Program-made: the position numbers and the translations under genes | Shown here: one piece after another, positions 18,291 through 56,200 of the stretch | Position numbering within the stretch: position 1 is the stretch's first letter | How the letters are laid out: each line of letters opens with the position of its first letter | Assembly: GCA_050084515.1 (NCBI GenBank) | Contig: CM114271.1 | Span: 28,396,001 to 28,460,000, forward strand | Direction of reading: 5' to 3' | Source of the DNA: Blasia pusilla | Lineage: Eukaryota | DNA: 64,000 nucleotides | The notes under the pieces: generated by a model | Told to the model about the DNA's origin: nothing | The model's input: the letters and a program-made list of their open reading frames with translations, nothing else | Databases searched by the model: none

Positions 18291-18647
18291 CTCCATCGTG
18301 ACTATAGTAGGACTCTCTGGCGCGGGTGTAGGTGGTTGCTATGGTGCAATCCCGTCTCGAACAATGAAACTCGATTGCTCTTCTACTGCCAACTGCAAAA
18401 TATGATCTCCATGTGCAGTACCCAGGACCACGCTCGATACTGTGGCTACCATCTGAAGGCGTACCTGCAAAAAATCCCAAGAAGTCCAACGATGTCTCTC
18501 ACAATCATACCTGGTGTATCGATCTCCTCAGGTCTCGCCCCTAGCCATTGCCTCAACCGTCTCGGTAGGCATGGGGCTCACCAACGCAACTATAGTGATC
18601 TGTCGCATCCTCAAACGACGTTGCTCATGTACTCCTAAGATGAAAAT

Positions 18648-22180: not shown

Positions 22181-22804
22181 CAGCCAAATGGGGCTCTAAG
22201 CGGTCGTAGGCGACAACAACGGTCGACGATCAAAGGTCGACGGTGGATGGTGACGATGGACCATTGATAATGACGATGGACCATCGACGGTGATGGTTGA
22301 CTATTGATGGCGGACCGTTGAAGGTGAGGGCCGCCGCCGCCGCGGCTGCTGGTTTGAATAATTTTACCCTCAAAATCGCCTAACAATGGCAAATCTGCAA
22401 AATTGGCCATAACTTTCTACTCGAAGCTCCAAATTGTGCACCATCTATTGCATAGCGTGCATAACTTTGCCATCTACGATGGTCTCAAATAATATTTTGT
22501 AATCGGACCTTTGTATAAAAATTTACTGGGATTGTTGCAAGTCCCAACGTCTCTTCTCCTACGGAAATTTTGGCAGTGCTTACGCGCTGATTTCTCTCCA
22601 AAAAAATTAAAAACCTGTGAAAATAAAAATCAGCAAGCTACACGGTGCTCATGAGAGCATCGGTATGGGGAAACCCACCCCCATACTTAATCCCTATCAG
22701 AAATTGGGCACCGCTTCCGCGTGCCACTCTCTCACACAAAAAATCAGAACACAAACATCAAAACATGCGGCTCTTGCTCCCATGAGCACTCCTATCATCC
22801 ATGA

Positions 22805-23410
22805 AGCAAGAAAAATATTCCCCAACATGCACGTAACATCAAGCAACCAGCGAGCTTCCCCTTTAAGCTCTCTCACTCTCTCATTCTCTCTTTGTAAAAT
22901 AAGGTGAAATCTCTCGCAACACCATAACTCTCAAATATGTGCAGTCTCGGATGTCGCTCTCAATGTCAAACTTAACCCACTCTCCTAACGAGAGCCTTGG
23001 GTTACACACACAAGGCAAGCAAGACCATATCTCCGTCGCCTCATGCCAAGAGGTTCAATAAAGAGAGAATGAGCTCTCAAGCTCTCTCTCGTTGAGGTAT
23101 ACCCTTTCCCTCTCCCAAATTCTCTCCATGGTAACCTATGCTTCCAAGTCACCTCCTTGGCTCTTGACTTGATGTAGGAGGTCAATGGCCACTTACCAGA
23201 AATAGTAAGTAGACCATATACTCAAAATGATACTTATCTAAAATAGTAAGTTCCTCAATGTGGCTCCAAGTGAGCCGAAACGCAGGGGAAACCTGCTCTC
23301 TCATGTTTCTTGGGGCCTCTGTAGGTCATCCTCAACCTCCAGAGTATGTCCTCCACTACTCGTGAAGGCGCTCTACTCAATGTTACCGATCTATCCTAAA
23401 ACACGTGACT
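22805..23410 (-). repeat. 5' terminal repeat A (LTR-like) of Gypsy copy 1
   Basis: Begins (A)GTCACGTGTTTTAGGATAGATCGG on the minus strand directly against Helitron sequence; matches 14878-15481. Confidence 0.85.
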
Positions 23411-39436: not shown

Positions 39437-39604
39437 GAATCTACAAGAAACTCTCCTTCATCCACTTTTAGCTTCACACTCTGGTCCAACGGTGTAGAGA
39501 TTGGCTTACAAGCCATCATCCCGAGTCCTTCATATCAAAATTTTCTTGTAATTTTAGCTTGACTTGTTGTACCATATCCTTACTACTCCGAGTAATCAAT
39601 ACGT

Positions 39605-40090
39605 TGTCACGTCTTTTAGGATAGATCGGTGAGATCTAGTAGATTGCCTTTGTGAGTAGTGGAAGACAGGCTCAGTAGGTTGAGGACGACCTATTGAGGC
39701 CCCGTGAAACCTGAGAGAGTAGGTTTCCCCTTCGTTTCGGCTCATTTGGAGCCATATTGAGAAACTTGCTATTTCAGGTAAGTACCATTTTGAATATATA
39801 ATTGATTTTATATTTTTGATAAGTGGCCATTGACCTCCTACATCATGTCAAGAGCCAAGGAGCTGACTTGGGAGAATAGGTTACCATGGAGAGAGCTTGG
39901 GAGAGGGGAGGGGTACACTTCAAGGAGAGAGAGCTTGAGAGCTCATTCTCTCTTTGTTGAACCTCTTGGCATGAGGCGGCGAAGCTATGGTCCCTTGCCT
40001 TGTGAGTGTAATCCAAGCCTCTCATTAGGAGAGTGGGTTTTGTTTGACATGAGAGAGAGTGCATATCTTTGGGAGCTATGGTGTGAGATG
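39605..40090 (+). repeat. 5' terminal repeat A of Gypsy copy 2 (resumes at about 43614 after the LINE fragment)
   Basis: Direct repeat of 52661-53147. Confidence 0.9.
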
Positions 40091-43000
40091 ATCTAGATAA
40101 TGGGCCCCAAACTTGGGTCCCATATAAGACCACCGACAACATTAAGCTCATAAATAAGAATTTCCTAAGACCCCAAGACACAAGATGAGCTCTTCTACAT
40201 CGGTTTAAAAATGAATATAGAGCTTTGTAACCAGCTTCTACTCTCTTTTGCACGCAAAGTGCCCAACTATAATCATTAGAGAAATCGATGCCTAGATATT
40301 TATAACTCTTCACTTGTTCTAATTGTAGACCTTTGTAAAAGAACGAGAACTTGGATCTAGTATCCACTACAATGACTTTAGACTTCTCCATATTAACCTC
40401 CATCTGATTCTCGATATAAAACCTTGCCAAAATGTCAAAGTGTTGTTTTTAACTAATGCCATCACGTGCTAGTAATATGATATCATCTGCATACAAAAGA
40501 GCTTTGATGACAAAGTCCCCAAGCTTGACACCTTCAATATCACATTCCTCCAACCAATTTTAGATATCATTTATGAAAACTCCAAATAGAGTAAGGGAGA
40601 GAGGACAACCTTAAATGACTCCGATGGTACTCAAGATCTCTTGAGTTTGTGAACCTTTGATTTTGGCCCGAACGGAATAGGTTAACGTGGCCACGACTGC
40701 TAGGAGATTTGGTGGTACTCCAATGGCTTGCAGCCTTTCCCATAAGAGCTTACGAGGTACAGTATCAAAAGCTTTCTTGAAATCGATGAAGCCGCAAAAT
40801 AAAGCTTTTCCATTGCCCTTAGATTTCTCCCATAAAACACGCAAGGCCAAGATATGGTCGATGGTGTTGTATGTTGGGCAAAAACCAGCTTGGATCCGTG
40901 CTCTCTTTTGGAAAGACTCTCTCTATGCGCTCAACTTTGACTCCACAAATTTCCCTAACAACTTGGCAAAAACACTACCCACCATGATAGTGCGATAGTT
41001 TGTCAGCAAGTCCTTCCTTCCTGATTTGAGAATAGAAACAATCTCCCGTAGCGACCAGGTTGAAGGAAAACCATAGATAGAAGCATCACCCAATACTTTG
41101 GTGAGGATCGGTCCAATACAATCTCCTCCCCACTTGAAAAGTTCAATAGAAAGACCATCCAAATCCTCACATTTACCATTTGCTAATCTTCTTAGTTGGG
41201 TTATCACCTCTCCTTTAGAGAATAAGCCAGGTATTCCCTCACAACGTGGCATAGATGTAGCGTCGGGGAAGAAATAGATCTTTTCGGCAAAAGATACCAA
41301 AGACTTGGGATCAAGAGTAGGTTTTGAAGACCGTACTACTAACCATCTCCAAAATGATTTGGGGTCCTCGTGCAGCTCCCTTGTTAAGGACTCTTGCTTC
41401 CGCTACAAGAAAGCTCGTTTCTTAGATTTTACCAAGTCTTTGCAAAGGCTCGTCATAATAAACCGACTTTAGAGATCCAAAGATTTATCAACTGATCTTG
41501 CCATTGCTTGCTTGCATTCATAGTCAAACCACCCATTACAAGGCAACCTCCTAGCACTTCTATCCCTATGCCGCGAAAATAACTTAGATGTAGTGTTGTT
41601 GAGCAATTCGGTTAGTTGCAAACTTGCCGTGTGTGGATCTCCGCTCCATACAATGCGAGTCAAGAGTTCTTGTAAATGTAGCGTATAAAGATCATTTTTA
41701 CCAGGATTTAAGGTTAAAAAATGCTCTGTCAAAGGATTTGTAGAAAGATCTGAAGAGATTCTAGACCACAAAATATCCTCCTTTTCTTTGAGAAGAGGAG
41801 AAGTCAAGGAATCACTGAATTGGGTAAATTGAGCAGTACGGGTGCGAGCATTGAAATCCTCAACTAGAAAGACTTCACCTTTGCTTTGATATTTGAGAAC
41901 ATTCCCAATAAGTTAATGGAACGGTTGACTTAGATTGTAAGTGCGTGTTGAGTAGATAGGCATGGACAGTGGTGCAAAATAACAAACTGCCAAATAACAA
42001 TAAGATCCCCCAACCAAACCAAGATGTAGCCAATGATATTGGCCCCTGATATCTTGATCTTCTAGATGTATGAGAGATAGAAATTGAGACCTGATGAAAG
42101 GAGCAATACCACCATAATCCCTTCATGCCCGCATCGCGTAGATGAGCAATAAAACTTGCTTCTTGAGCCTCTTTGACCTTTGCAAGCTCCTTTCTCCTAG
42201 CTTCAACTTGTAGAGGTGTAAGATCAAAATCCAACCATATCCTCTGTCCTTTGAGAATGGCCTTGTTAGCCATGGCAATATCACGTTGAGTTTGATCAAC
42301 AAACTTAACTAGAATGGCACGAGGTTGTATTCCCGTTTCCCCAACACGGAAAGCTTGAGCCAAGTCCGGGTTATGAACATGAAGTGTATCAACCAAGAAC
42401 TTGGTGACAACACTCTTCACCTATTCGCTCTCTATTTTTGGCAAACCTGAGATTATCACATTCTTTCTACGGGCAATTTGGTTTTTCTTTTCTATCTCTT
42501 GCTCTTGACAGAAGAGATATGAGCAACCTTTGTAAGATTTCATTTTTTACTTCTAAAGTTTTAACAACCTTATGCAATCCAGGACTATAAGGAGTAGTCG
42601 CTAATGATGATGCCTTCTCTTGAACATCCGCAACAGATTTGGAAAGATCGAGCATCACACTAGAACTATCTTTCAACACTTTCTTGAAAACCTCTTGGGT
42701 TGCCTTTAATTCTCGGATTTGAATATGTGCAAGGTTTAATTAAGAAGTTTGTACCTTGAATTATTGTTGAAGCTCTTTCAATTTGTGCAAGACCACTTGC
42801 ACTAGATTCAAGATTTTGTCTTGAGTAGTCATCATGTAGTCGACTTCACTACATCCCAGATATTCCACGACCTCCAATAAAGTATAACCAAATCTCCAAC
42901 ACCATACAACTTATGCTCTAGAACGTACTTGAAATTCTTATAGCTATGACGCCTCTTGACACTCCACGTTGTCTCAAAATATTAGCTTCATATCACACTC

Positions 43001-43613
43001 CACCTTAAAGATATGGCCTCCGCAAGATTTAGATCTTAAATCGTAAAATCTAGAAGAGCAAAAACTCAAATCTCGCACAACTTCGTGTGTGTAATTGGGT
43101 TGTGCTTAAAATTTTCAGGGCTAGGATGCCTCTTTATATTCCATGTTTTCTCAAAATATCAGTTTCACATAACACTTCATCTTAAAGATATGGCCTGCGT
43201 AAGATTCAGATCTAAAATCCTCAAATCTAGAAGAGCAGAAATTCAAATCTCTCACAACTTCGTGTGTGTAATTCAATTGTGTTTGAAATTTTCAAAGCTA
43301 AGACAAATTCTTACATTGTAAGTTTACTCAAAATCTTAGCTTCATTTGACACTCCACCTCAAAGATATGGTCTCTGTAAGATTCGGATCTTAAATCCTCA
43401 AATCTAGAAGTGCATAATCGCAAATCTCTCACAACTTCGTGTGTGTAACTCCGTTGTGCTTGATATTTTCAGGGCTAGGACACTTCCTAATTCTCCACGT
43501 TTCTTCAAAATCTCAGCTTCATTTCACACTCCACCTCAAAGATTTAGCCTCTGCAATATTCAAATATGAAATCCTCAAATCTAGAAGAGCAGAAACTCAA
43601 ATCTCTCCTCAAA
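40091..43613 (-). mobile_element. Non-LTR retrotransposon (LINE) fragment: 5' tandem repeats, ORF1, partial APE endonuclease, RT; 3'-truncated
   Basis: ORF1-like RAILVKF...IWLDFDLT; EDFNAR endonuclease motif; NYRTI, QAGF, FIDFKKAFDTV, GCPLSP, YADD, YKYLG. Confidence 0.9.
42960..43613. repeat. Tandem repeat, period about 178 bp, about 3.7 copies, at the LINE 5' end
   Basis: Anchor (C/T)TCAAAAT recurs at about 42973, 43150, 43328 and 43504, with shared AAATCTAGAAG and ACAACTTCGTGTGTGTAA blocks. Confidence 0.9.
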
Positions 43614-45269
43614 TGTAGAGAGAGATTGGATCTTACTTTACAAAGAGATAATGAGAGAATTGAGAGAGTGAGAGACCTTCATGGGGGAGTTCGCTGGTCA
43701 TCTGTTTTTTTTCAGGTTGGTGACTGTGTTCCCTCTTCAGCGGCTCATGGGAGTGCTCACCAGGGCAAGGGCTGCTTTGATTGTTCTTTGCATTTGCCGA
43801 TTTTTCGTATGGAAGAATGGCACGCGGAAGCGGTGCCCAATTTCTGATAGGGATTGATTATGGGGGCGGGTTGCCCCATGCCAGTGCTCTCAAGAGCACC
43901 ATGCAGCTTATTGATTTGTATTTTTACAGGTTTTATATTTTGGTTGGGAGAAATCATCGCGGAAGCGCTCCCGAATTTTTTGTAGGAGAAAGAGACATTG
44001 GGCTTTACGACAGTCCCTATCAGTTTTTACTGGAATGTCCAATTCCAAATATTTTTTGACGTTGTCGTAGATCGTGAAGCTATGCACATTGTGCATCAAA
44101 CAAACTCCAATTTGGGGTTGCGAGTAAAAAGTTATGGTCAATCTTGCAAAACTGCCATTGCTAGGCGATTTTTAGTGTTAAATTGTTCAAACCCTAAACC
44201 AGCCGCCACGCCGTCATAATCACGGTCAACGGTCAACCGTCACCATCACCATCAACGGTCAACCATCACCATCAAAGGTCCACCATCCACGTCGCCGTTT
44301 CCGTCGCCCAACGTTGCTCAGAGCTGCATTTGGCCGTTTTCCACCCTTTGGTTGACATTGCCGCCATTACGAAGTGGAGGGTCTTTCACGACCACCGTTG
44401 ATTCTTTGACTTGCGCCGCCACCACGTACTTTGATTTGGCCGCCTCATCATCAAAGTTTCGTCATCAACCAGTGATGGTATATGATCTCCGATTATGGTG
44501 TTTGAGTTTTGATTTCATGCTACTATGTTGTGATTGATAGCCGCTCGACGAGGATCGAGTACCGTGCCATGACGCCTGTAGCCGCAACGCGCCGCAAATT
44601 TCCGCACCGTGCCGCTTGTGGCCGCACTGCACCATCTTGATTGCGGAGCCGCACCGTCATTGTGGAGCAGAGTATGGGTTTATTGTTGATTGAGGAGGGA
44701 ATGCCGCCGAGTGCCGTATCCCACCATCAAGGATCGTGCCATTTGGTGCCGCTTGCAACGCCGCACTATTCCGCTGGAACCGCACTGTCCATCAAGGAGT
44801 TTTAAGTAGTGTTGGTACGGGAGGAGTATGACTTGCTGATTGGAGGAGTTGACTCCACGACTGAGTTGGGATCAAGATTTGCAGTTGCTCAAGAGCAACT
44901 GCAAATTCTGGTCCTTTACCCTGTACTTGTGAGGGATTCTGGGATTTGGGTAGTTTATTTGGGGATATTGGGTGTGTGGATGCTGAGAGCATCATTTATG
45001 TATGTGTTTTAGGGGACATAGACCTGTATGGGGTGTCCAGAGTTGAGGGTAGGTTGTCGATGAGATGATAGTCTGGTCGATTTGCCGCACCACGCCGCTT
45101 GTTGCCGCACGTTACATGTCTCGGGGAGGGAGAGTGTAGATCGAGTGCCGCATGTTTGGGATGAGTGATTGAGGGATTACTCGCGAGGTTGAGAGTGATC
45201 TTGTGAGAGGGGCACGAGGGCCATCACAACCTCCTTTCAAGATTTTGAGAGCCGAGGTAGTGGACCTAA

Positions 45270-47400
45270 GAGTAGCTCCGGCGGGTTTACCCGGAGTGGT
45301 ACGAGGTTTCGAGGATCTCCACGTGAGAGACCATATCGATTTCCTTCTGTGTTGTCTTCAGACGAGGGAGAGCATGTAGAGGAGTTTGTGAGCACATCGC
45401 CACACATTGTGAGTGGTCCTACCAGTTGGGCGTATGAGATGGACGGTCGGGGTAGAGGACCGCGTAGGTTTTCAAGTGCAGTAGGCACGATTAAGTTGCA
45501 CGATTTCATAGCAAAGTTTAGGAGTTTGTGCGACTCCCTGCGGGCCAGGAACTCTACAGAGTTCAACTCGTTTATAGAATGGAACGGTATGTTCCAGTAT
45601 TTAGAGGGGCGCCCATGAACGATTACCATGAGTTCTCTCAGAGATATGCGCGTGAGATCAAGGCGTGGAGGCTCTACTATGACCCACATTATGTGTCATG
45701 GACAGAGCCATTCCCTGATGAGGAGGAGGAGTCAGGAGAGGCTACTTCCTCTTCCACTAGTGAAGTTTTAAGAGGGGTCACTTGCACGGGAGCTGTTGCA
45801 CCGTCTAGTTGGGTTCGTCCCATGTTGAACTCTGGGGTAGAGTTCTTTGCTGAGTTGAGGGCGAGCTACTAGGGGGTATGGACGGAGAGGTTGCGGAGCA
45901 TCCACGACTTCCACAGGCGCCCGCGTGAGATTTTGCATGAGGCTTACACTCGCTTGCGCTGGTTGATCAACATCACTTAGGAGATGACAAAGGCTTAGGC
46001 TATCCAGTCATGGTACGCGATGCTAGACCTGACCCTACGGACACGGGTGCGGGAAGGGGTGCTTCTTATGAACACCTCCCCTACGTTAATAGATGTTTTG
46101 AGGACCGCCGGGAACATTGAGCGCAACATGGCGGAGGAGAGCGTAGCCACCATGGGTTCTGGGTGAGAGCAGTCACGATTGTCTGCACTACCTGTGCAGC
46201 AACGTGGACTCGACTGTGGCACCACGAGCTCAGGGAGGATACGAGGAGGCCGTGCCACAGAGACCTGTGCCTTCATATGCGGCTCAGCAACAACCGCCTA
46301 CTATTACTTGTTGGTCATGTGGTGGAGCCTATCATCAGCACGATTGCACTCGTTACGGTCAAGGATGTGTGCCTCAGCATGGAGGAGGAGATGGTGATGC
46401 ACCAGGAGGTTATCAGTGTGACTATTGTTAGAGGTATGGTCATACACGCGCCAGGTGTTTTAGTTTACATCATGAGTTACGTTCAGGGTCGAGGGCCAAA
46501 GAGGGCACCAGAGCGAGTAGCCGGTCTAGGTGGGCCTAAAGATCGTGCACCAGGTGGTCCCATTGGGGGAAGAGGAGTTGGAGTTTCCCGACAGGATGGT
46601 GGAGTTGACCATGGAGGAGATAGAGTCCTACCACCTAGACGCGTCGAGGGAGATGCCAAGCGTGAGGCTAGGATGGCTTCTCAGATACATCAGCTATAGG
46701 AGTAGATTGCCGCTATGGCATTGAGAATACCCGATGCCGGATCCGTGGCATCGACATCATATGGAGCAGCCAGAGATATGGAGGATCCTGGTTGGATGTG
46801 CGGGGTTGCTCTGATAGAGGCAGCCGCAGAGTTGGATCCACATCGAGGGGAAGCCAGGAAAAAGACTAGGCTTTCTCAGTCTTTCACGTTGTCTGAGGCG
46901 TTGAGGACCCCTTCGATGGGTCTTGATCAGAGTTCCAGGAGAGTTGGTGATGTTGTTGGTATGTAGGCATAGAGGGCGATGGGAGAAGCGAGTGCAACGA
47001 CTCCTACTGTTGATGCTCAGGAGGGGCATGTGTCGAGCACGTTGTTAGGGGCGGCCACCATTGTGTACCGCGCTCCTTTATTTTTTGCTTTCGATGTTAT
47101 GACGTTGGGGGGTACGCCCGCCGAGGCTTTTTGGCTGCCTGCTACGCTATGTGAGCGTGGAGTTGGAGTTCTGCATCACGTTGAGAGGTGATTGCAGAGG
47201 AGGTGATGGACCTGCCCTTGGAGTGGATGCTCGGCTGTCCACGTCGGATTCATGGCAGGCTGCGGCTTCTAGGATGGCAGAGATGCCCGCTAGACCCGCG
47301 CTAGAACGTGCCATGGCTTCTCTTGGTGTTGTGTTGTTGGATAACCAAGGAAAGGTCTTCCAGTTGGTGAGTCTCGGAGGTAGAGCTTTTAGTCCGCAGC
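45270..47400 (+). pseudogene. Gypsy gag with two CCHC zinc knuckles (copy 2)
   Basis: CWSCGGAYHQHDC and CDYC*RYGHTRARC; fragmented ORFs homologous to copy 1. Confidence 0.75.
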
Positions 47401-47979
47401 AAGTATCACCCGACAGAAGGTCGTGGTGAGGATTTGCTCGGGACATCCTGCAGATGAGTCCGTGGTGCGAGCCAAGGCGATAGTGACTGATGTAGAGTCC
47501 TACGACGTCTTGGTTGGTGGAGCAGTGTTATACCTGATGGGGTTTTCCCTGGACTACTAGGAAGAGTCAGCGTCCTACAGACCATGATGGCAGTCAGGTG
47601 ATGGGTGCCTTAGCTCATTACCCATTCGATTCACATGTGCAATGATCGGCCACGAGAGATGGCGACCTTAGCATCATTTAGCAGTGCCATCACTTGGCCT
47701 AGTGATTTGATTGAGGGACATATCCATGCAGAGGATACTCCCATTCCTGAAACTTCTATGGAGAGGAGTGTTATGGAAGCCGCATCATTCTGTGGAGGAG
47801 AGGTGCCGCAGTGGGGCTCGACTGAGGAGCTTCGACAATTGGCAGATGAGCACGTGCAAACCGCATGGAGCGAGGCGTTTGCACCGGAGCATGACGGGTC
47901 TGAGGAACCCGAGGTAGCAGGGAGTCCTATGATGACACCCTTGGATACCACACCCATTGTGTGATGTACCTCGGAGGAG

Positions 47980-48920
47980 GGTATTTGAGTGTTAGATCTC
48001 TTTGGAGGGATTAGCACCGGGTTAGCTGTTGTTTCGCAGGCAGGAGTGCGAGTGCAACAATACCTGTATGTGGAGAGTGATCATGTTGCGAGGCGCGTCT
48101 CACTACGACATATGGCGCAATTACGCCTACATTTTCCCGACTTATTTTCTGCGTGTGCGGTAGAGAGGTACCAGAGTTCCCTACCAAGGGATATTTTGTT
48201 GCTGGGGGCGCAAGACTTAGACAAGTTAGGCACCATTGATTTGGTCATTGCCGGTTGGCCATGTCACGGCCAATCGAGTCCTGAACGAGGCAACGGGTTG
48301 GCTGACACTCGGTCCAGGTTGTTTTGGGAGATGTTGAGGGTCTTACGGCAGTTGCAGGAGCACCAGTCTTGTTCTCCAGCCTACAATATGGAGAATATAG
48401 CAATCTTAGGAGACTCCAGGTCATGGGTGGTGATGAGTGCTCATCAGGTGCGTGCCTGGATCGGCCCAGCAGTGTTCTTGGATGCGGCGAGTGTAGGTTC
48501 TAGAGCCCATCGCCCGCGTCTATGGTGGACCAACTTGGTGCCCCATGCGGTGTTACGGAGGGCGTATGCGAGAGTGGAGCGCCCCTCCCATTTGTTAGTG
48601 GATTCCATTATGGATCCAGGTCGTCGCTCACAGGTAGTGAGGAACAATGATCGACCACCGTTGACTGTGGTCAATAGGGTAGGCAAGTCGCAAGCAACCT
48701 TTCCCACGTTTGTGAGTTTTTCCGCTTCCTATGCATACAAGGAGGCCGGTCGTGGCTTGGTTTGGGATGATCATGTTCAGAGGTTGGTGGAGCCCAACGC
48801 CGACGAGAGAGAGCAGGCGATGGGATTTCCCACAGGAGTGACGGCAGTACCGAAAATATGAGAGGCATCACTACGCCATGTCTTGGGTCATGCGATGGAC
48901 CTTAACAGCTTGACATGGAT
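47980..48920 (+). pseudogene. DNMT3-like C5-cytosine DNA methyltransferase domain in Gypsy pol (copy 2; 290-aa open stretch)
   Basis: LDLFGGISTG (I), YLYVESD (II), DI (III), IDLVIAGWPC (IV, catalytic PC intact), SRLFWEMLR, MENI (VI), DAASVGSRAHRPRLWWTNL (VIII), EREQAMGFP (IX), VLGHAMD (X, after one stop). Confidence 0.92.
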
Positions 48921-49272
48921 CTTCAACTTGGGAGTGGCTGAGCAGCGTCCGATGAGATCGCGACAGATCACAGCAGTTGCGTTGGTGAGCCCCATGCCTA
49001 CCGAGACGGTGGAGGCAGTGGTTGGGGGTGAGATCCGAGGAGATCGACACACCATGGGAGATCGAGAGAGACATCCTTGGACTTCTTGGGATGTTTTGCA
49101 GGTAAGTCATCAGATGATAGCCACAGCATCGAGCGTGGTTCTCGGCACTGCATGTGGAGGAGACAAGAGTTTGCAGTTTGCTGCAAGAGAGCGCTCGAGT
49201 GTTGTTGTTCGAGACAGGGTTGCACCATAGCAACCACCGATATCCACGCCGGAGAGTCCTACCGTAGTCACA

Positions 49273-50750
49273 ATGGAGACTTGGGAGCCAAATATGGGCC
49301 CTAAGTTGACAGGAGGAGAGCGGCGCCAAATACATCACTTCCTTAGGAGTTATAGGAGCTGCTTTGGGTTTAGCATGGAGGATTTGGGTATGCTGAAGGG
49401 ACCGGGGATCCGCATGGAGTTGTCGAGTAATACGCCGATCTTCCGACGACCCTACAGGTATAGTGATATGGAGAGGGCTTTGATTCAGAGTAGGAGCCAG
49501 GACTTGGTTGGAGTAGGACTAGGGGAGATGTCGCATGGGGAGTATGCATCTGCCACTGTCATGCCCGCCAAGAAGGATGTGCGTGGCAACTGGACGGATA
49601 GGCGGATGTGTGGGGATTACCGACCTATCAATCGGCAGACGAAGTCCGATAGGTATACCATGCCCACCCCTGAAGAGATCTTTCATGCGATTGGTCATGC
49701 AAAGGTTTTCAGTTCATTGGATTTGCAAGCCGGATACCATCAGCTGCCTATCAGATTGGAGGACATGAAGAAGACGAAATTTTGGGGCATTTATCCTCAC
49801 GGGAACGATTGTTTGTACTAGTGGGGGTTCTTACCATTTGGGTTAAAGAATGCCCCAGCTAAGTTTCAGAGGGTCATGCATAGGATCTTGGCTGTTCTGG
49901 ATTTTGCTAGGTGTTATATTGATGACATCATAGTCTTTAGCGCCACGATTGAGGAGCATGAGCGACATCTAGAGGAGGTGTTTCGACGATTGCAATTACA
50001 TGGGCTAAAGCTACATCCAGGCAAGTGCAAGTTCTTCTACGACCATATTGAGTACTTGGGTCATACAATATACCCGGGGGCCCTTGGTGTTCAGCAAACA
50101 AAGGTACAGCCTATCTCACGCATTCCACGGCCTACAGATCTGATCCGTGTTCGCGCATTCATGGGATGGCCAAACTTCTATCGGCGGTACATCAAGGGAT
50201 TCAGTTCGATTGCGAAGCCGCTGACCTTGCTGACCAAGATGGATCACGAGTGGCATTGGGGGGATGAGCAGGAGCGAGCATTTCAGTTGCTCAAGGACAG
50301 GTTGATGTCCATGCCTATCTTGAGGAGACCAATCAGGGGGCGTCCTTTCAAGTTCCACACAAATTGGAGCATGTTGGGGCTTGGTGCGGTGCTCACCCAA
50401 CATGATGATGAGGGTAGAGAGTTTGTGGTGGCTTATGCTAGCCGCTCAAACAATGCTGCAGAGGCAAAGTATAGCTCGTATGCGGATGAGTGCTTGGCTA
50501 TGGTGTGGGTTGTCGCGCATTTCAGGTGTTACTTATTCGGCAATCCCTTTACCATGATCACTGATCATCAACCACTGAAGTGGTTGATATAGTCCGACAA
50601 GCTTACGGGGAAGCTTGCGAGATGGGCTCTGTTGTTGCAGGAGTATGATTTTCATGTGGTACATAGACCTGGGATGCTCAACCAGGATGCAGATGGATTG
50701 AGTCATAACCCATGCCCGATTCAACGAGATATGATTGGAGCTCGATAGCA
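49273..50750 (+). pseudogene. Gypsy RT and RNase H (copy 2)
   Basis: RMCGDYRPIN, LDLQAGYHQ, CYIDDII, YLGH, VVAYASR, ITDHQPLKWL. Confidence 0.95.
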
Positions 50751-50930
50751 TAGAGAGAGTGATGAGGAGTTAGTGCCACGATGGCATACGTAAGCCTATT
50801 TAGGCATGTTGGCTATGGAGAGCCAGAGTGTGGAGACTTCGATGGCGAGGTCTAGCGGAGAGTCCTTGGATCCCGAGGCTAGTGAGGAGACGACAGATGG
50901 CTGAGATATATTCATGATGATGGAGTAGTC

Positions 50931-52344
50931 TTGGAGTACCTTTGGACTTGCAACGTTGCGAGCACCATGGGTGCTAGAGAGTGGGATCGAATCCTACAGC
51001 GGGTCAGATGGTTCCGTTGGGAGGGGACACATGTTTTGAGGGTTTGGGAGGATGGCAGAGTACGCGTAGTGCCGTTTCCTTCGCAGAGAGCACGACTAGT
51101 TCAGCATGCTCACGAGGAGTTGGGTCACTTTGGGGTGAACCGGACATACAGCTTGCTCCAGATTCAGTATTGGTGGCGAGGCATGCAGACTCACGTTCAT
51201 CAATTTGTTGCCAAGTGCATGGTGTGTGATCTGGTCGGAGCATCGTTCAATGCTCCGACTCCACAGTTGCATCCATTACCGATCATGGGCTTAGGTTATA
51301 GATGGAGTTTGGATTTTGCAGGACCTTTGCCTTTGACGAAGCATCACAGTCGTTATGTATTGGTGATGGTCGAGCACTTCTCGAAGTGGATCAAGTTGGT
51401 TGCATTTCTTGACAAAGAAAGTAAGGGAGTAGCTTATGCCTTCCTTGATAGAGTGTTGAGTCATTATGGCGCACCGGCTGAGGTGTTGACAGATCAGGGT
51501 AAGGAGTTTCGCGGTGAGTTCTAGGCCTTGTGTGATCAGGCGTTGATCAACCATCGCACTACTTCGCGAGATCATCCTGAGGCGGATGGATTAGCGGAGA
51601 GAGTTGTGCAAACGGTGAAGAGGGGTTTACGCAAGTATGGCTTGCAGAGGGGTCACCTAGGAGATTGGGACCTCCAGTTGCCCTGGTTGGCGATGGGATA
51701 CAGATTCAGCAAGCAAGCATCCTTAGCATTCACCGTACTTGCTTCTTTATGGCCAAGAGCCAGATTTACCTGCGGACATTCGTCGAGATGTTGGTGAGGT
51801 GCTGGACCTTGATGACCCAGATGTATGGATGCGAGCATGTTCTCAGAGGGCTGAGTTATTTCGGAGAGTGATGCCCATGGCGTTCGAGAACTTGGCGATT
51901 GTGCAGCATGGGGATACGTTCAGGTATGCGACTATTGAGGGTGGTGGTTATCGACCAATTATCCGGAGGTTTCATCAAGGAGATTATGTCTACTTGCAGC
52001 AGACGGCACCGACGATGTTGGATGTGACTGTAGGGCGCACTATCCAGAGAGTGCGTGACGTTTTGCCATCCGGTGTTCTCTTGCTGGAGGGACGCGGTGG
52101 TATGGTATGGAAGGACCATGTGCATAATTGTGCGCCATGTCACCTTCCTAACATTGATGGTACAGTCGATCCGAGCTTAGCAAAAGTTCCTGCAGGCTTA
52201 CGTTGTATGTTGTGTGGTTCTGCGCGTGGTGCGGCCACAATGCTAGTCTATGATGGATGTTCGAGAGGTTGGCATATGGCATGTTTGATGCCACCTCTCA
52301 CTAGGGTTCCTCGGGGACGATGGATGTGTCCCAGATGTACATAG
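50931..52344 (+). pseudogene. Gypsy integrase with C-terminal PHD finger (copy 2)
   Basis: HHCC (HEELGH...CMVC), LDFAGP, LTDQGKEF, GLAERVV (D,D,E), then CMLC...DGC..GWHMACLMPPL..VP.G.WMCPRC. Confidence 0.92.
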
Positions 52345-52532
52345 AGGAGATATTAGGTACGTTTGGATTTTGACTTTAAATGTGATATGGATGACATGAA
52401 GGCGACTAACGATGGGCCCATATGAGCACCTAACCTTCTTGCTCTTAGCGTTTGAGAGATGTATGTCATGGTAGGTAGGGATAGATGGTTATCTGGAATT
52501 AGAGGGACCTAACCACCAGCTAGGGGGGCGAT

Positions 52533-52658
52533 TGGAGATATTTTAGGACTTCTTGTCTCGTTGTTTGGATGCCATGAGTTAGCATGGGATCGTGCGTGTT
52601 TGTGTGTGTGTTCGATGACAACGATGTATATTGTGTAGCGATGTATATGCGCACGACA
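52533..52658 (+). repeat. Repeat B1 (TG...CA) following purine tract AGGGGGGCGA (52522-52531)
   Basis: Repeated at 53148-53258. Confidence 0.8.
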
Positions 52659-52660
52659 AC

Positions 52661-53147
52661 TGTCACATCTTTTAGGATAGATCGGTGAGATCTAGTAGAG
52701 CGCCTTCGTGAGTAGTGGAGGACTGGCTGAGTAGGTTGAGGATGACCTGCTGAGGCCCCGAGAAACCTGAGAGAGCATATTTCCCCTTCGTTTCGGCTCA
52801 TTTAGAGTCATATTAAGGAACTTAGTATTTTAGGTAAATACCATTTTGAGTATATGATTGACTTTCTATTTTTGGTAAATGTCCCTTAACCTCCTACATC
52901 ACGTCAAGAGCCAAGGAGGTGGCTTGGGAGAATAGGTTACCATGGAGAGAGCTTGGGAGAGAGGAGGGGTATACCTCAAGGAGAGAGAGCTTGAGAGCTC
53001 ATTCTCTCTTTGTTGAACCTCTTGGCATGAGGCGGCGGAGCTATGGTCCCTTGCCTTGTGAGTGTAACCCAAGCCTCTCATTAGGAGAGTGGGGTTGGTT
53101 TGACATGAGAGAGAGTGCACACCTTTGGGAGCTATGGTGTGAGATGG
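52661..53147 (+). repeat. 3' copy of terminal repeat A (Gypsy copy 2)
   Basis: TGTCACATCTTTTAGGATAG...; matches 39605-40090. Confidence 0.9.
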
Positions 53148-53258
53148 TGTAGATATATTTTATGACTTATTGTCTCGTTGTTTGGATGCCACGAGTTAGC
53201 ATGGGATTGTGCGTGTTTGTGTGTGTGTTCGGTGACAACGATGTGTATGCGCATGACA
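53148..53258 (+). repeat. Repeat B2 forming the right terminus of Gypsy copy 2
   Basis: TGTAGATAT...GCATGACA; Copia C RT resumes immediately after it. Confidence 0.8.
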
Positions 53259-56200
53259 AGATCGTCAGCATACAACACAATGATAACCATATGATCTTGT
53301 CCTCTCAAGATATATAACGAGGAGTTGGAATCACATACCCTAAAACCTAACTCTTGTAGGACGTATGTAATCTTGCCATACCAAGCGCTTGGAGCTTGTT
53401 TGAGCCCGTATAGAGCTTTCTTAAACCTGTATACGCGAAATGGAAACTCGGGATGCTCATATCCAGGTGGTTGAGTCATATATACCTCTTCATATAGATC
53501 TCCATTCAAAAAGATATTATAGACGTCCATTTGATGTAATCTCCACTTCATACTTATTGCAACTACATGCAACCATTGTTCTCGTAGTCGCCATTTTTGC
53601 AATAGGGCTAAATGTTTCCTCATAATAGATGCCATATTGTTGTGCATAGCTCTTAGCCACTAATCTTGCTTTGTATTTGTTAACAATATCGTCTTGATTG
53701 CGCTTGATTTTATAAACCCATTTCCAACCAATAGCTTCCTTACCATAAGGTATATCAACCAGCTTCCATCTCTGTTGCTGTCTTAATGTAGCAAGCTCTT
53801 CCTCCATAGCTTCAATCCATTCAACTTTATTTGCAACTTCTTCAAAACAACTCAGCTCTTGTTCTTGAAGGGTTATCATCATATATGCAAGATGTGTCAT
53901 AAGAAAATCTATGAACATGATGTGTTACTCTTCTTGATCTACAAAGTTTTTGTTTAGAGGTAGATACCTCTGACACTTGACTTGAGCTTTGACTAGTGTT
54001 AGTAGATTGAATACGTATTCTTCCCGTCCATAAACTCACAGATTTAACTAACGAATATAAGACCTCTCCTAATCGTGCACTAGTACTTAGGGAATTTGAA
54101 GGCAATGTTCCGTTGGTTTACAGTCATATTCTCCCCTCAACAGACAAATTTAGATGTGGAATAGGCTTAGATGGAGCATACCATGACTTTAGCTCATCCA
54201 TAACAACATCGCGACTAATAATAAGCAGTCTAGAGCACGACTTATAATAAGCAGTCTAATAATAAGCAACCTAGGGAACGACTAATTATATCCTTTATTT
54301 CCATCAACGTAGCCAATGAATATACATCTTTCAGATTTGGGGTCTAATTTCTGATGTCTTTCAAAAGAAACATGAGCATAACAAATACAACCAAATACTT
54401 TCAAGAATGAAAAATCAGATTCACTTCGTGCGAAGACTTCGGATGGAGTCTTATCATGAATTCCTACTGTTAGAGTTTGGTTGATTAAGAAGACTGCACA
54501 GGCTACATCCTCTCCCCAATACACCTTAGGCATATTCTTCTCATTCCAACATAGCTCCTGTTGCCTCAACAATATGTCGAATCTTCCTCTCAGCCACTCC
54601 ATTTTGTTGTCGAGTGTAACGGCAAGTCACTTGACGTTGGATGCCATTCTAACGTAAGTTGTCATCAAACTTTGTTGAAATATACTCTCCTCCTCCATCA
54701 CAACGTAATTTTAGAATGTGTTATCCATTTTGCTTCTCTACTAGAACTTTGAATGTTTGGAACACTGAGAATACCTCTAACTTGGCTTTCAAAAAGTATA
54801 CCCATATATACCTAGAGAAGTCATCAATAAAAGAAATAAAGTACTGGAAATCACTAAGGTTATGTTGTGATGTTGTCCACACATCACTGTGAATCAACTC
54901 CAATATCTTGGATGGTCTTCTACCTTGCTTTGGAAAAGGAAATCTAGCTTGTTTCCCAAATTGGCAAGCATGACATACCTCCAACATAGCAAGACTCGCT
55001 AATTTAAGAAGTCTTATTACTATAATAGATGATGAAAGACTCTATAATCTTTGAAGATTCATATGTCCAAATCTCTTATACCACACATTTAGATCTCTGA
55101 CTTGTTGGTCAATTTGACCATACATTGATGTTTGAATTTCTAACATAGAAATATCTAATTTGAACATTCTGCCAGATCTATTTCCTTTGTCTATCATAGT
55201 CTCGTCATCCATTCTTTCAATGAAACAACCATCTGTGTTAAACTTCACTTGATAATCTTGTTATACTATCTATCCTACACATATTAAGTTTATTGCAATG
55301 ATAGGAACATAGAGAACATTTCCAAGGGCACTAAGACCATCTGATGTTATTGGAACTTTATCGATGTGCAGGATATGATGTTGAGTGTCATCTCCTGTGA
55401 GCACAATTGCAGGATCTTTCATTGGCTCCATACTACTGAACCATTTAGCTTGTGAGGTCATGTGATTTGATGCACCAAAGTCAATGTACCAATTTGCTGT
55501 TGAGTCTTTCTTGACCATTGCTCCCATATGATGAAGCATGATCAAGAGATGCTTAGTTTGTGAATGTTATTGTTCTTGGTAGTGCCCTTTATGTTGTTGC
55601 TCCTCATAGTTTTGTTGATGTAAGGCTTTTGTTCTCATATGTGCCTTCTTCTTGAAGCAAAATTTTGCAGAGTGATCCTTTATTCCACAATAATTGCAAG
55701 ATCCATGAACCCTCTAATGTTGACATCAACCCCAACGGTTTCCAGCATCACCACCTTGTGATTATATGTGGTACTGATTCGTAGTTGATTGAGTGATATT
55801 ATATTGAGTGCCTCTTCCTTCATATGTTTGATATCCAACACAATCACGGAAGCTTCTACCAAGACCCCTGCCTTTGTTTAATCCATAACCTGAAAATACC
55901 ACACTCTCTTGTATAGTAGACGAGCTACCTTGCCTACTAGGCGCATCTCTTCATTGATTAACAGCGAGACTAACTCTTGAAAGATTGGATACTTCTCTCT
56001 CACTAAGATAGAGGTCTCAAAGGACTTGGCATCCTTTCTAAGGCCTTGAAGAGTGAACAAAATCACATCATCATCTTCTATTGTCATTCCAATGCTATTT
56101 AGCTAATCAATAATATGTCTGATACTCAAAACATAATCATCGATGCTCTACGATCCTTTCCTCACTTTGTTGAATTGCTATTTCAATTGAAGCTTCATGG

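What the first reader, a model, noticed from the sequence alone, without database searches (positions are those of the whole stretch)
47635..50592. Gypsy retrotransposon carrying a DNMT3-like cytosine methyltransferase inside its pol polyprotein
Seen: a 290-codon open stretch (47989-48861) carries C5-MTase motifs in unpermuted order: LDLFGGISTG, YVE, DLVIAGWPC with the catalytic Pro-Cys, EN, AHRPRLWWTNL, EREQAMGFP, then LGHAMD after one stop. ORF pieces starting at 47635, 47989, 48883, 49273 and 49876 share one reading frame, so the MTase is in frame with RT and RNase H and broken only by nonsense mutations. It lies between protease and RT. Knowledge: these motifs parallel the DNMT3 catalytic domain (LSLFDGIATG, DLVIGGSPC, FENV, AHRARYFWGNL, EMERVFGFP), not the permuted DRM type. 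Standard Ty3/Gypsy pol has no such domain. I recall reports of DNMT-bearing retrotransposons in dinoflagellates and a charophyte alga, so the concept has precedent, but this position and a probable land-plant host should be checked for novelty. Inference: as part of pol the enzyme would be packaged in the virus-like particle and could methylate the cDNA before integration, or the target chromatin, making this a self-methylating retroelement.
Basis: partly seen in the sequence, partly recalled or inferred. Interest (0 to 1): 0.95.

Follow-up and report, generated by a model that had tools for sequence, protein, structure and literature searches.

The report
Gypsy retrotransposon carrying a DNMT3 methyltransferase
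This is a decayed copy of a plant jumping gene whose replication polyprotein includes its own DNA-methylating enzyme, a rare arrangement already described in a green alga, found here in a genome whose closest matches are liverworts and where the family is very abundant and still transcribed.

Summary
Window 47614-50592 is one reading frame with five in-frame stops. Its 290-codon stretch is a C5 cytosine methyltransferase: Pfam PF00145 above cut-off, DNMT3A/B/C the best solved relatives by sequence, profile and predicted fold, and unpermuted motif order.

The domain sits between protease and RT of a Ty3/Gypsy element at 39605-53260. The element has a 5-bp target duplication and split a Copia RT. 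Its pol ends in integrase plus a PHD finger. A second copy, 81-84% identical, lies at 14850-23408 (minus strand) and has the same domains.

Between the two copies the MTase has dN/dS 0.24, like RT (0.36), RNase H (0.23) and integrase (0.20). Genomic reads of the coded species cover the MTase segment as deeply as gag. About 4% of sampled DNA reads match the element's interior. Three RNA runs show strongly strand-biased transcripts, almost all from other copies.

Relatives at 50-66% identity are unannotated gene models in liverworts and Sphagnum. A second domain order (RT-RNaseH-MTase-integrase-PHD) occurs in chlorophytes.

This is a new member of the known Gypsy-DNMT3 kind (Klebsormidium, 2018). 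Both window copies are dead. Self-methylation of the cDNA remains inferred.

The parts
39600..39604 (+). left copy of the 5-bp target-site duplication (TACGT)
   Evidence: The right copy reads ATCGT, so 3 of 5 letters agree. Taking out the element plus one copy leaves the host Copia RT frame open across the site, with its YADD motif.
39605..40099 (+). 5' terminal repeat 'A' (starts TGTCAC)
   Evidence: 495 bp, 90.9% identical to 52661-53155. About 85-86% identical to both repeats of copy 2.
40100..43620 (.). foreign low-GC insert inside the 5' repeat region; includes 177-bp tandem repeats (42925-43607) and a minus-strand ORF (41875-42420)
   Evidence: Absent from copy 2. GC is 0.40 against 0.50-0.54 in the element. 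Repeats. No Pfam family for its ORFs. About 20-25 bp of repeat sequence appears duplicated at both of its edges, read by eye.
43621..43757 (+). rest of the 5' LTR as defined by copy 2 (ends ...GCTCA), followed by a PBS-like stretch
   Evidence: Aligned to copy 2 positions 22960-22783. In copy 2 this part is repeated at both ends.
45199..46450 (+). gag-like region, with a zinc-knuckle-like C-x2-C-x4-H-x3-C at about 46309-46347
   Evidence: Assigned by position and by 82% identity to copy 2. No Pfam hit for the ORFs tested. The knuckle was seen by eye in ORF 46147-46431. Relatives P0044 and P0207 have zf-CCHC.
47103..47530 (+). protease remnant (frameshifted in this copy)
   Evidence: Matches copy 2 positions 20330-19998, which carries LLDSGA. 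That copy-2 ORF aligns to P0206 residues 662-767, where Pfam finds Asp_protease_2, at E 3e-11.
47968..48978 (+). DNMT3-like C5 cytosine methyltransferase domain (motifs I, IV, VI, VIII, IX, X in that order), with two in-frame TGA stops at 47986-47988 and 48859-48861
48979..49230 (+). linker between MTase and RT
   Evidence: No family hit. dN/dS was measured on 48961-49227, which overlaps the last 18 bases of the MTase part: 0.80 (0.40-1.71). Many indel joints among family reads at 49104-49217.
49231..50592 (+). reverse transcriptase and RNase H, with one in-frame stop
   Evidence: RVT_1 9.4e-22, RT_RNaseH_2 1.7e-30, RT_RNaseH 1.4e-26.
50886..51797 (+). integrase (H2C2 zinc finger and DDE core), split over two frames
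   Evidence: Integrase_H2C2 1.3e-16, rve 5.2e-10. ORFs 50886-51524 and 51525-51797.
52204..52338 (+). PHD finger at the C-terminus of pol (stop at 52342-52344)
   Evidence: PF00628 3.7e-9. Best solved matches are CHD4 PHD2 (2.5e-14), PHF12, KDM5A/B PHD1, KAT6A/DPF3, PHF21A, ATXR5 and AIRE.
52531..52660 (+). repeat 'B', first copy, preceded by a purine tract (about 52520-52530)
   Evidence: 92.8% identical to 53152-53248. Also present before the 3' repeat of copy 2 at 15592-15483.
52661..53155 (+). 3' terminal repeat 'A'
53156..53260 (+). repeat 'B', second copy; the element's 3' end (...TGACAAG)
   Evidence: The A-to-B junction is carried by 4,781 genomic reads of the family (table 7, agreement 0.59).
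53261..53265 (+). right copy of the target-site duplication (ATCGT)
14850..23408 (-). second, more decayed copy of the same family: LTRs of about 630 bp (23408-22783 and 15479-14850), protease 20330-19998, MTase 19577-18708 split over three frames, PHD inside 16230-15775

Best explanation
The finding lies in the pol gene of a dead Ty3/Gypsy LTR retrotransposon at 39605-53260. The element belongs to the Gypsy-DNMT3 kind.

In intact relatives one gag-pol ORF encodes zinc knuckle, aspartic protease, a DNMT3-type C5 cytosine methyltransferase, RT, RNase H, DDE integrase and a C-terminal PHD finger. Four things are shown:
- the domain identities and their order;
- that the MTase is a standing part of the family and is conserved by selection;
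- that the family is very abundant;
- that family members are transcribed, apparently in sense.

The mechanism is inferred, at about 40% as stated. The MTase is made as part of Gag-Pol and carried into the virus-like particle with RT and integrase. It methylates the new double-stranded cDNA, or the freshly integrated copy, most likely at CG. The PHD finger on the integrase tail tethers integration to nucleosomes with unmodified H3K4. New copies would then arrive already marked, in quiet chromatin.

The two window copies no longer do any of this. Each carries stops and frameshifts and about 9-10% divergence between its terminal repeats.
For: - Identity of the domain: PF00145 at 28.2 bits against a cut-off of 22. 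Best PDB hit by phmmer is DNMT3A at 6.5e-11. The family profile gives DNMT3A 1.9e-26, 3C 3.2e-23, 3B 8.3e-23, DRM 1.4e-15 on half the profile only, HhaI 4e-9, DNMT2 1e-5, and no DNMT1 at E<=0.01. The AF2 model has pLDDT 88.2 and pTM 0.89. The top Foldseek PDB hits listed were all DNMT3A, 3B or 3C.
- Catalytic residues in 71 aligned domains: Cys of motif IV in 67, Glu of ENV in 71, both Arg of RxR in 69. The window copy keeps all of them.
- Element anatomy: RT, RNase H, integrase and PHD by Pfam. Protease by homology to P0206. Terminal repeats. TSD and restored Copia frame.
- Intact relatives carry the same order in one ORF: P0206 (2358 aa, PR-MT-RT-RNH-INT-PHD) and P0044 (2188 aa).
- Constraint, by Nei-Gojobori between the two window copies: MTase dN/dS 0.24 (95% bootstrap 0.16-0.35; 285 codons used, 5 skipped). 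Compare RT 0.36, RNase H 0.23, integrase 0.20, and the MTase-RT linker 0.80.
- Family-wide presence: in a genomic run of the coded species, 532,318 of 12,895,792 sampled reads (4.1%) lie on 44000-52650 at >=80% likeness. Mean depth is about 5,270 in the MTase bins, about 5,230 in the gag-protease bins and about 7,770 in RT-integrase.
- Transcription: 6,550, 6,571 and 6,945 reads in three RNA runs. The strand bias is about 19:1 in the MTase bins of X22. This means sense RNA if the libraries are of the usual stranded type.
- PHD: nearest solved fingers are CHD4 PHD2, KDM5 PHD1, PHF21A, ATXR5 and AIRE. By my recall these read unmodified H3K4.
- Precedent: KnitGypsy-Dnmt3 sits in a Gypsy pol ORF with Ka/Ks<0.2, and SymbioDIRS-Dnmt3 domains methylate CG de novo in yeast (PMC5890265, passages).
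Against: - No activity is shown for any member of this family. The only tested Gypsy-borne enzyme (Klebsormidium) gave no methylation in yeast, which the authors called inconclusive.
- Conserved catalytic motifs do not tell DNA from RNA substrates, nor cDNA from chromatin.
- Of the RNA reads, only 10, 4 and 5 per run are >=99% like this copy. The transcripts therefore come from other copies whose intactness I could not see.
- The depth figures come from a Hi-C library, 1 in 100 reads sampled, at 80% likeness, so they are rough.
- 30 of the 71 domains have Glu-Cys instead of Pro-Cys in motif IV.
- I could not place the domain in a tree with host DNMT3, DRM, CMT and MET1, because no such sequences could be brought in. 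'DNMT3-type' rests on nearest solved structures only.
- No Klebsormidium sequence was among the hits, so direct kinship with KnitGypsy-Dnmt3 is untested.
- The H3K4me0 reading of the PHD finger is recalled, not tested.
Confidence: 0.8

Rival explanations
1. The MTase is catalytically active but works in trans on host chromatin, such as the target neighbourhood or other loci, rather than on the element's own cDNA. An abundant family would then add to, or disturb, the host methylome instead of 'self-methylating'.
For: The family is very abundant and is transcribed. The pol ends in a chromatin-reading PHD finger. The 2018 paper raises accidental activity of element-borne Dnmt3 on the host genome (discussion passage).
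Against: Nothing here separates cis from trans action. Being fused in Gag-Pol next to RT favours action inside or near the particle or intasome.
Confidence: 0.25
2. The domain no longer methylates DNA. It binds or methylates RNA, or serves as a structural or nucleic-acid-binding module of pol, and is conserved for that reason.
For: The Klebsormidium domain gave no DNA methylation in yeast, and the authors themselves raise RNA methylation for the LINE-borne enzyme. 30 of 71 domains have Glu-Cys instead of Pro-Cys in motif IV.
Against: The catalytic Cys is kept in 67 of 71, the ENV Glu in 71 of 71 and RxR in 69 of 71. The nearest folds are DNA-bound DNMT3 catalytic domains. DNMT2, the RNA enzyme, is a far weaker match at 1e-5 against 1.9e-26. 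SymbioDIRS-Dnmt3 domains do methylate CG.
Confidence: 0.12
3. The MTase is not part of the element. It would be a host DNMT3 pseudogene or a nested fragment that happens to lie inside this copy, or a mis-join.
For: The element does carry one nested foreign insert elsewhere, at 40100-43620.
Against: The domain is in the same frame as RT and RNase H. It is present at the same place in the second copy, which is 81% identical. In genomic reads of the family it is as deep as gag. It sits in a single ORF with PR, RT and INT in intact relatives. Its dN/dS is like that of the other pol domains.
Confidence: 0.01

Closest known systems
KnitGypsy-Dnmt3 of the charophyte Klebsormidium nitens (de Mendoza et al. 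2018, PMC5890265; passages read)
   Same: Both have an unrearranged Dnmt3-type domain inside the pol ORF of a Gypsy LTR retrotransposon, under purifying selection (their Ka/Ks<0.2; here 0.24, uncorrected for post-insertion decay). Their figure legend says the repeats are arranged as in DIRS elements, given as A-coding-B-A-B. Copy 1 here shows exactly that arrangement, and 4,781 family reads carry the A-to-B junction.
   Different: The host here groups with liverworts rather than with a charophyte alga. The family makes up about 4% of sampled genomic reads, whereas the paper says K. nitens has fewer copies than Symbiodinium. A C-terminal PHD finger is present here, and the paper's text never mentions PHD (0 occurrences). 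I could not see its Fig. 4c or its supplements. No Klebsormidium sequence appeared among the hits. Domain order and direct kinship therefore remain uncompared.
Host DNMT3 enzymes (DNMT3A/3B/3C; plant DNMT3) and DRM
   Same: Same catalytic fold and colinear motif order with DNMT3A/B/C.
   Different: There are no PWWP or ADD domains. The domain is embedded in a retroelement polyprotein. Sequence identity to human DNMT3 is about 21% over the fold alignment. DRM is circularly permuted relative to this domain.
SymbioDIRS-Dnmt3 and SymbioLINE-Dnmt of Symbiodinium (same paper)
   Same: A retroelement-borne DNMT sharing an ORF with RT, with A-coding-B-A-B repeats in the DIRS type.
   Different: Those elements use a tyrosine recombinase or an endonuclease. 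This one has a DDE integrase with an H2C2 finger.
Chromoviruses (Ty3/Gypsy elements with a chromodomain on the integrase C-terminus; from established knowledge, also cited in the 2026 preprint passage)
   Same: A histone-tail reader is fused to the integrase C-terminus, presumably to steer integration.
   Different: A few relatives carry both: Pfam PF00385 with PF00628 in P0195 and P0200.
EpiLTRs (bioRxiv 10.64898/2026.05.21.726589; passages read)
   Same: LTR elements that assemble several epigenetic domains in pol.
   Different: EpiLTR DNMTs are reported as sister to DNMT4 and are appended at the 3' end of pol, together with an adenine methyltransferase. That preprint itself treats 'streptophytes (Gypsy-DNMT3)' as a separate, earlier-described acquisition.

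Membership tests
Ty3/Gypsy LTR retrotransposon | pol order protease - RT - RNase H - integrase (integrase after RT) | tested here: met
   Pfam RVT_1, RT_RNaseH, Integrase_H2C2 and rve, in that order. The protease lies upstream.
Ty3/Gypsy LTR retrotransposon | long terminal direct repeats and a short target-site duplication | tested here: met
   Copy 2 has LTRs of about 630 bp, 90.3% identical over 590 bp, with TG...CA ends. Copy 1 has 495-bp repeats at 90.9% and a 5-bp TSD agreeing at 3 of 5 positions, with the host Copia frame restored. No TSD was recognised for copy 2.
Ty3/Gypsy LTR retrotransposon | primer-binding site and polypurine tract next to the LTRs | tested here: inconclusive
   A PBS-like TGGGAGCAAGAGCC follows the copy-2 5' LTR, but no tRNA match was tested. 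The purine tract at about 52520-52530 lies before repeat B, not directly before repeat A.
C5 cytosine methyltransferase (PF00145) | profile match above the curated cut-off, and motifs I, IV (Pro-Cys), VI (ENV), VIII (RxR), IX, X | tested here: met
   28.2 bits against 22. Motifs.
DNMT3 family | closest to DNMT3 catalytic domains in sequence and fold, with colinear motif order | tested here: met
DNMT3 family | falls inside the DNMT3 clade in a phylogeny with DRM, DNMT1/MET1, CMT, DNMT5 and bacterial enzymes | not tested
   No host DNMT sequences could be obtained. The three word-indexed searches returned only element-type proteins.
DNMT3 family | companion reader domains of host enzymes (PWWP, ADD in animals; DUF in land plants) | tested here: not met
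   Pfam finds none in the window ORFs. The only reader is the PHD finger at the far end of pol.
Gypsy-DNMT3 retrotransposons (as defined for K. nitens) | DNMT3-type domain inside the pol ORF of a Gypsy element, conserved among copies | tested here: met
Gypsy-DNMT3 retrotransposons (as defined for K. nitens) | A-coding-B-A-B arrangement of terminal repeats | tested here: inconclusive
   Met in copy 1 and supported by 4,781 family reads. Copy 2 has plain LTRs without a second B.
Gypsy-DNMT3 retrotransposons (as defined for K. nitens) | sequence kinship with the Klebsormidium elements | not testable with these tools
   No Klebsormidium protein appeared among the listed hits. Figures and supplements of PMC5890265 were not visible.
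DRM (domains rearranged methyltransferase) | circularly permuted motif order (VI-X before I-V) | tested here: not met
   Profile positions 14-148 align to DRM residues 228-352 only. The window domain runs I to X in order.
DIRS-like retrotransposons | tyrosine recombinase instead of a DDE integrase | tested here: not met
   Integrase_H2C2 and rve are present, and there is no phage-integrase hit.

The most novel reading that the evidence does not exclude
Land plants, at least liverworts and Sphagnum, harbour a living lineage of Gypsy elements that bring their own de novo DNA methyltransferase and an H3-tail reader. In this genome the lineage has grown to several percent of the DNA and is still transcribed. 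Element-encoded DNMT3 would then be a real contributor to how new insertions, and perhaps host loci, acquire methylation. Its A-coding-B-A-B ends, combined with a DDE integrase, would point to an unusual way of rebuilding the element's termini.
Probability: 0.25. Interest if true: 0.75.

Novelty: new member of a known kind. Interest (0 to 1): 0.5.

Why it matters
Cytosine methylation is the host's main weapon against transposons, so a transposon that carries the weapon itself is a paradox worth testing.

The 2018 report rested on one alga with few copies, and on an enzyme whose activity test was inconclusive.
- The kind reaches into land-plant lineages with tractable models. Marchantia polymorpha has at least 20 gene models among the hits.
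- It can become a major genome component, at about 4% of sampled reads.
- It is transcribed.
- It comes with a PHD finger that could steer integration.

Together these make the self-methylation hypothesis testable in a plant with good genetics. The window copy itself is a fossil and adds nothing functional.

Tried and rejected
- Own genome: none is held for this window, so no census of copies was possible.
- The search for related loci on metagenome contigs with the MTase alignment returned 80 loci at only 22-50% identity. No DNA of intact relatives could therefore be examined.
- Three word-indexed protein searches brought no host DNMT3, DRM, CMT or MET1 and no Klebsormidium protein. The phylogeny with host enzymes could not be built.
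- Literature: seven full-text searches, plus passages from six papers, found no statement of DNMT-bearing Gypsy elements in liverworts, mosses or chlorophytes, and no PHD finger on a Gypsy integrase. Subscription journals, figures and all supplements were out of reach, so this is weak evidence of absence.
- The look-up of sequencing runs: no RNA holder was listed in the index. The RNA evidence comes only from laying three raw-read runs of the same species label.
- Pfam found no family for the copy-2 protease ORF on its own. Pfam also found no gag family in the window, and none for the foreign insert's ORFs. My impression that 40100-40448 (-) is the tail of a non-LTR RT is unsupported.
- Rfam and tRNA scans of the whole window found nothing.
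- The ESM Atlas look-up returned only C5-MTase clusters: two viral and one streptophyte cluster of 57 members. It adds little.
- A first dN/dS script timed out on a slow alignment and was rerun with a faster one.
- I considered that repeat B after the 3' repeat was a local rearrangement. I rejected this because thousands of family reads carry the same junction.
- I considered LTR = B+A. I rejected this because the insertion boundaries fixed by the split Copia gene are the start of A and the end of B.
Full report
**Observation**

Window 47614-50592 on the + strand translates in a single frame. It has five internal stops before the closing one. Motif X (LGHAMD) follows one TGA.

Pfam gives PF00145 at 28.2 bits, above its cut-off of 22. 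The same frame continues into RVT_1 and the RT-linked RNase H domains. After a frame change come Integrase_H2C2 and rve. The last ORF (51727-52344) ends in a PHD finger, PF00628 at 3.7e-9.

**What kind of methyltransferase**

I read the domain through with X at its two stops (P0001).
- By phmmer it finds DNMT3A (6.5e-11), DNMT3C and DNMT3B as the best solved proteins. DRM2 follows at about 1e-3 and bacterial M.HhaI and M.HaeIII are weaker. DNMT1 is absent.
- I aligned P0001 with 19 short, MTase-only proteins picked from the 150 listed representatives (A1). The profile raises this to DNMT3A 1.9e-26, 3C 3.2e-23 and 3B 8.3e-23.
- Tobacco DRM matches at 1.4e-15, but only profile positions 14-148 against its residues 228-352. 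This is the signature of DRM's permutation, not of this domain's.
- The profile aligns to DNMT3A in three colinear blocks: motif I, motifs IV-VIII, and motifs IX-X.
- An AlphaFold2 model built on A1 has mean pLDDT 88.2 and pTM 0.89.
- Its best Foldseek matches in the PDB are DNMT3B, 3A and 3C catalytic domains, with E about 4e-18, TM 0.67 by query and 0.76-0.81 by target, and about 21% identity.

In 71 aligned domains the motif IV cysteine is present in 67, the ENV glutamate in 71, and both arginines of RxR in 69. The window copy keeps them all. 'DNMT3-like and unpermuted' is therefore supported. A phylogeny with host enzymes could not be made (see below).

**The element**

A self-comparison of the window shows two copies.

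*Copy 1 (+ strand).* It has a 495-bp repeat 'A' at 39605-40099 and again at 52661-53155, 90.9% identical. A 130-bp segment 'B' lies just before the second A (52531-52660). B is repeated just after it (53156-53260), 92.8% identical over 97 nt.

The element interrupts the RT gene of a Copia element on the minus strand. The Copia ORF stops at Y-A-D-D-L right after B2 and resumes right before A1. Taking out 39605-53260 plus one copy of a 5-bp duplication leaves the Copia RT frame open across the site. The duplication reads TACGT on the left and ATCGT on the right, agreeing at 3 of 5 positions. This fixes the insertion's ends at the start of A and the end of the second B.

A 3.5-kb low-GC insert (40100 to about 43620) splits the 5' repeat region. 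It has 177-bp tandem repeats and no recognisable family.

*Copy 2 (minus strand, 14850-23408).* It has plain LTRs of about 630 bp, 90.3% identical over 590 bp, with TG...CA ends. A PBS-like stretch follows the 5' LTR. Its interior is 81-84% identical to copy 1.

The protease is readable in copy 2 (LLDSGA, 20330-19998). It aligns with the Pfam-defined protease of the intact relative P0206 at E 3e-11. The order is therefore gag, protease, MTase, RT, RNase H, integrase, PHD.

**Is the MTase a standing part of the family?**

Yes, on four counts.

1. Copy 2 carries it at the same place (19577-18708), split over three frames.

2. Nei-Gojobori dN/dS between the two copies puts the MTase with the essential pol domains:

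| Region | dN/dS | Note |
|---|---|---|
| MTase | 0.24 | bootstrap 0.16-0.35; 285 codons used, 5 skipped |
| RT | 0.36 | |
| RNase H | 0.23 | 72 of 173 codons skipped |
| Integrase | 0.20 | |
| Integrase tail plus PHD | 0.33 | |
| gag piece | 0.41 | |
| MTase-RT linker | 0.80 | bootstrap 0.40-1.71 |

Each copy has since decayed neutrally, with terminal repeats 9-10% diverged. The constraint while the lineage was active was therefore stronger than 0.24. This last point is an inference.

3. Intact relatives encode everything in one ORF. P0206 (2358 aa) runs PR, MTase, RT, RNase H, integrase, PHD. P0044 (2188 aa) runs zinc knuckle, PR, MTase, RT, RNase H, integrase.

4. Raw genomic reads of the coded species were laid on 44000-52650 at >=80% likeness. 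Of 12,895,792 sampled reads, 532,318 (4.1%) lie on the stretch. Mean depth in the four MTase bins is about 5,270. It is about 5,230 in the nine gag-protease bins and about 7,770 in the eleven RT-to-PHD bins. Only 2,065 of the laid reads are >=99% alike and 317,507 are under 90%, so the family is large and diverged. These figures come from a Hi-C library sampled at 1 in 100 and are rough.

**Expression**

Three RNA-seq runs of the same species label give 6,550, 6,571 and 6,945 laid reads, about 0.06% of the reads sampled. Depth rises from about 20-40 over gag to 50-90 over the MTase and 150-260 at the 3' end.

The reads are strongly one-sided. First mate on the minus strand outnumbers the other by about 19:1 in the MTase bins of X22. 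In the usual stranded library this means RNA of the + strand, that is, sense.

Only 10, 4 and 5 reads per run are >=99% like this copy. Other copies are the transcribed ones, and I could not see whether they are intact.

**Relatives and host**

The word-indexed searches list proteins from these hosts:
- liverworts: Calypogeia fissa (65% identity), Marchantia polymorpha (at least 20 models at 50-63%), M. paleacea, Riccia sorocarpa;
- moss: Sphagnum fallax and S. troendelagicum;
- zygnematophyte: Closterium;
- chlorophytes, at 30-40%: Scenedesmus, Chromochloris, Monoraphidium.

Nearly all are annotated 'hypothetical' or 'unnamed'. The exhaustive HMMER search counts 2029 cluster representatives at E<=1e-3 and 193 at E<=1e-30.

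I built a quick IQ-TREE of 71 MTase domains. The window copy falls in a clade of 10 with the Calypogeia and Marchantia rows and one unnamed protein (SH-aLRT 100).

A liverwort, or at least a bryophyte host, is the likeliest reading. A transposon tree is not a host tree, and no host gene was found in the window.

**Two architectures**

I located the window's RT, integrase and PHD by BLASTP in those 319 proteins.

| Order found | Proteins |
|---|---|
| RT before MTase (RT-MT, RT-MT-INT, RT-MT-INT-PHD) | 76 |
| MTase directly before integrase | 22 |
| MTase before RT, as in the window | 11 |
| MTase only | 209 |
| MTase and PHD only | 1 |

Pfam coordinates confirm both orders.

In the tree, all 22 RT-before-MTase rows lie in one clade of 44 (support 100) with Scenedesmus and Chromochloris. 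Seven of the eight MTase-before-RT rows lie on the other side, with Closterium and the liverworts. The eighth (P0025) sits beside the 44-row clade with weak support. The position between protease and RT thus marks the streptophyte branch of a wider green-lineage family.

A PHD finger was found in 61 of the 319 proteins.

**The PHD finger**

Its nearest solved relatives are CHD4 PHD2 (2.5e-14), PHF12, KDM5A/B PHD1, KAT6A and DPF3, PHF21A, ATXR5, AIRE and UHRF1. From recall, not from a call, most of these read the H3 tail with unmodified K4. By analogy with the chromodomain of chromoviruses, I infer that the finger tethers integration to such nucleosomes.

**How it most likely works**

Shown: the domain composition and order, the conservation, the abundance and the transcription.

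Inferred: the enzyme is translated within Gag-Pol and enters the particle with RT and integrase. It methylates the double-stranded cDNA or the newly integrated copy, most likely at CG as the Symbiodinium DIRS enzymes do in yeast (PMC5890265). The PHD finger biases integration. I put about 40% on this exact chain.

Rivals are action in trans on host chromatin (about 25%) and an RNA-directed or non-catalytic role (about 12%). The only tested Gypsy-borne enzyme gave no methylation in yeast, which its authors called inconclusive.

**Decay**

There are 904 places where at least a quarter of genomic reads differ from the window copy. The window has A where reads have G at 218, and T where reads have C at 201. 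The reverse cases number 109 and 87. This copy has lost G and C by transitions about twice as often as the reverse. That is the usual trace of deamination of methylated cytosine in plant transposons. It is not specific evidence for self-methylation.

**Terminal repeats**

Copy 1 reads A - interior - B - A - B. The legend of the 2018 paper describes this pattern for DIRS elements and states that KnitGypsy-Dnmt3 has the same.

In the genomic reads, 4,781 reads that lie on B from 52531 are preceded by the end of repeat A instead of the interior (agreement 0.59). The bin depth there is about 11,600. The A-to-B junction is therefore a family trait and not a local accident.

Copy 2 instead has plain LTRs, in which A is followed by a different 135-175-bp tail at both ends. 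I cannot explain how an element with a DDE integrase regenerates A-...-B-A-B ends. This stays open.

**Comparison with what is known, and novelty**

The kind is known: Dnmt3 inside Gypsy pol in Klebsormidium nitens (2018). Later papers cite it as 'streptophytes (Gypsy-DNMT3)' (preprint 10.64898/2026.05.21.726589, passage) and mention DNMT3 'embedded within retrotransposon structures' (PMC12344493, passage).

Seven full-text searches found no report of such elements in liverworts, mosses or chlorophytes, nor of the PHD finger. Figures, supplements and subscription journals were not visible, and the public proteomes already contain the sequences.

I file it as a new member of a known kind, with moderate interest. 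The added value is fourfold:
- the land-plant range;
- the very high copy number with ongoing transcription;
- the PHD finger;
- the two domain orders across the green lineage.

**Limits**

- No genome was held for a census.
- The one metagenome scan brought only distant, low-identity C5-MTase matches that I did not use.
- No host DNMT or Klebsormidium sequence could be brought in for a tree.

Noticed in passing
window 39605-40099, 52531-52660, 52661-53155, 53156-53260; compare 14850-15592 and 22783-23408: Copy 1 has its terminal repeats arranged A - interior - B - A - B, and 4,781 genomic reads of the family carry the A-to-B junction. Copy 2 has ordinary LTRs of about 630 bp, with a different tail after A. 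How a DDE-integrase element keeps such ends is unexplained. The 2018 paper's legend reports the same arrangement for the Klebsormidium element.
   Followed up: partly
related proteins P0026, P0036, P0096, P0139, P0191 and others: A second architecture, RT - RNase H - MTase - integrase - PHD, is the commoner one among the proteins retrieved (76 against 11). It forms its own well-supported clade with chlorophyte hosts (Scenedesmus, Chromochloris). I found no paper describing it.
   Followed up: partly
alignment of 71 MTase domains: 30 of the 71 domains have Glu-Cys instead of the canonical Pro-Cys in catalytic motif IV (GWECQDLS). In the 20-row alignment A1 these EC rows are the ones that the tree places in the RT-before-MTase clade, but I did not tabulate the variant against clade for all 71. 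The cysteine itself is kept in 67 of 71.
   Followed up: no
window 40100-43620: A low-GC foreign insert lies inside the 5' repeat region of copy 1. It has three-plus copies of a 177-bp tandem repeat (42925-43607) and a 181-codon minus-strand ORF (41875-42420) with no Pfam family. It is bounded by what looks like a 20-25-bp duplication of LTR sequence. Its class is unknown.
   Followed up: partly
window 53266-56100 (-) and 39286-39599 (-): A Copia element (RVT_2, SH3_retrovirus, rve) was split in its RT motif YADD by the insertion of copy 1.
   Followed up: yes
window 35333-38911 (+): Another Copia element has long open pieces of 351, 321 and 267 codons (Pol_BBD, gag_pre-integrs, RVT_2 at 9e-63). 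It is possibly young.
   Followed up: partly
window 13233-13922 (+) and 32314-33036 (+): The first ORF is Helitron-like (Helitron_like_N, 5.5e-41). The second, by eye, resembles a Pif1-type helicase tail, but Pfam gave no hit.
   Followed up: partly
window 44000-52650, RNA runs X22-X24 (table 7): RNA reads break away from the window copy at the same places (50014, 50064, 50313, 51727, 52181, 52531), and their overhangs are 92-99% uniform. This suggests that one or a few particular relatives supply most of the transcripts.
   Followed up: no
window 44000-52650, DNA run X21 (table 1): The window copy differs from the family majority mostly by having A or T where the family has G or C (419 places against 196 the other way). 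This is transition decay of the kind expected from methylated cytosines.
   Followed up: partly
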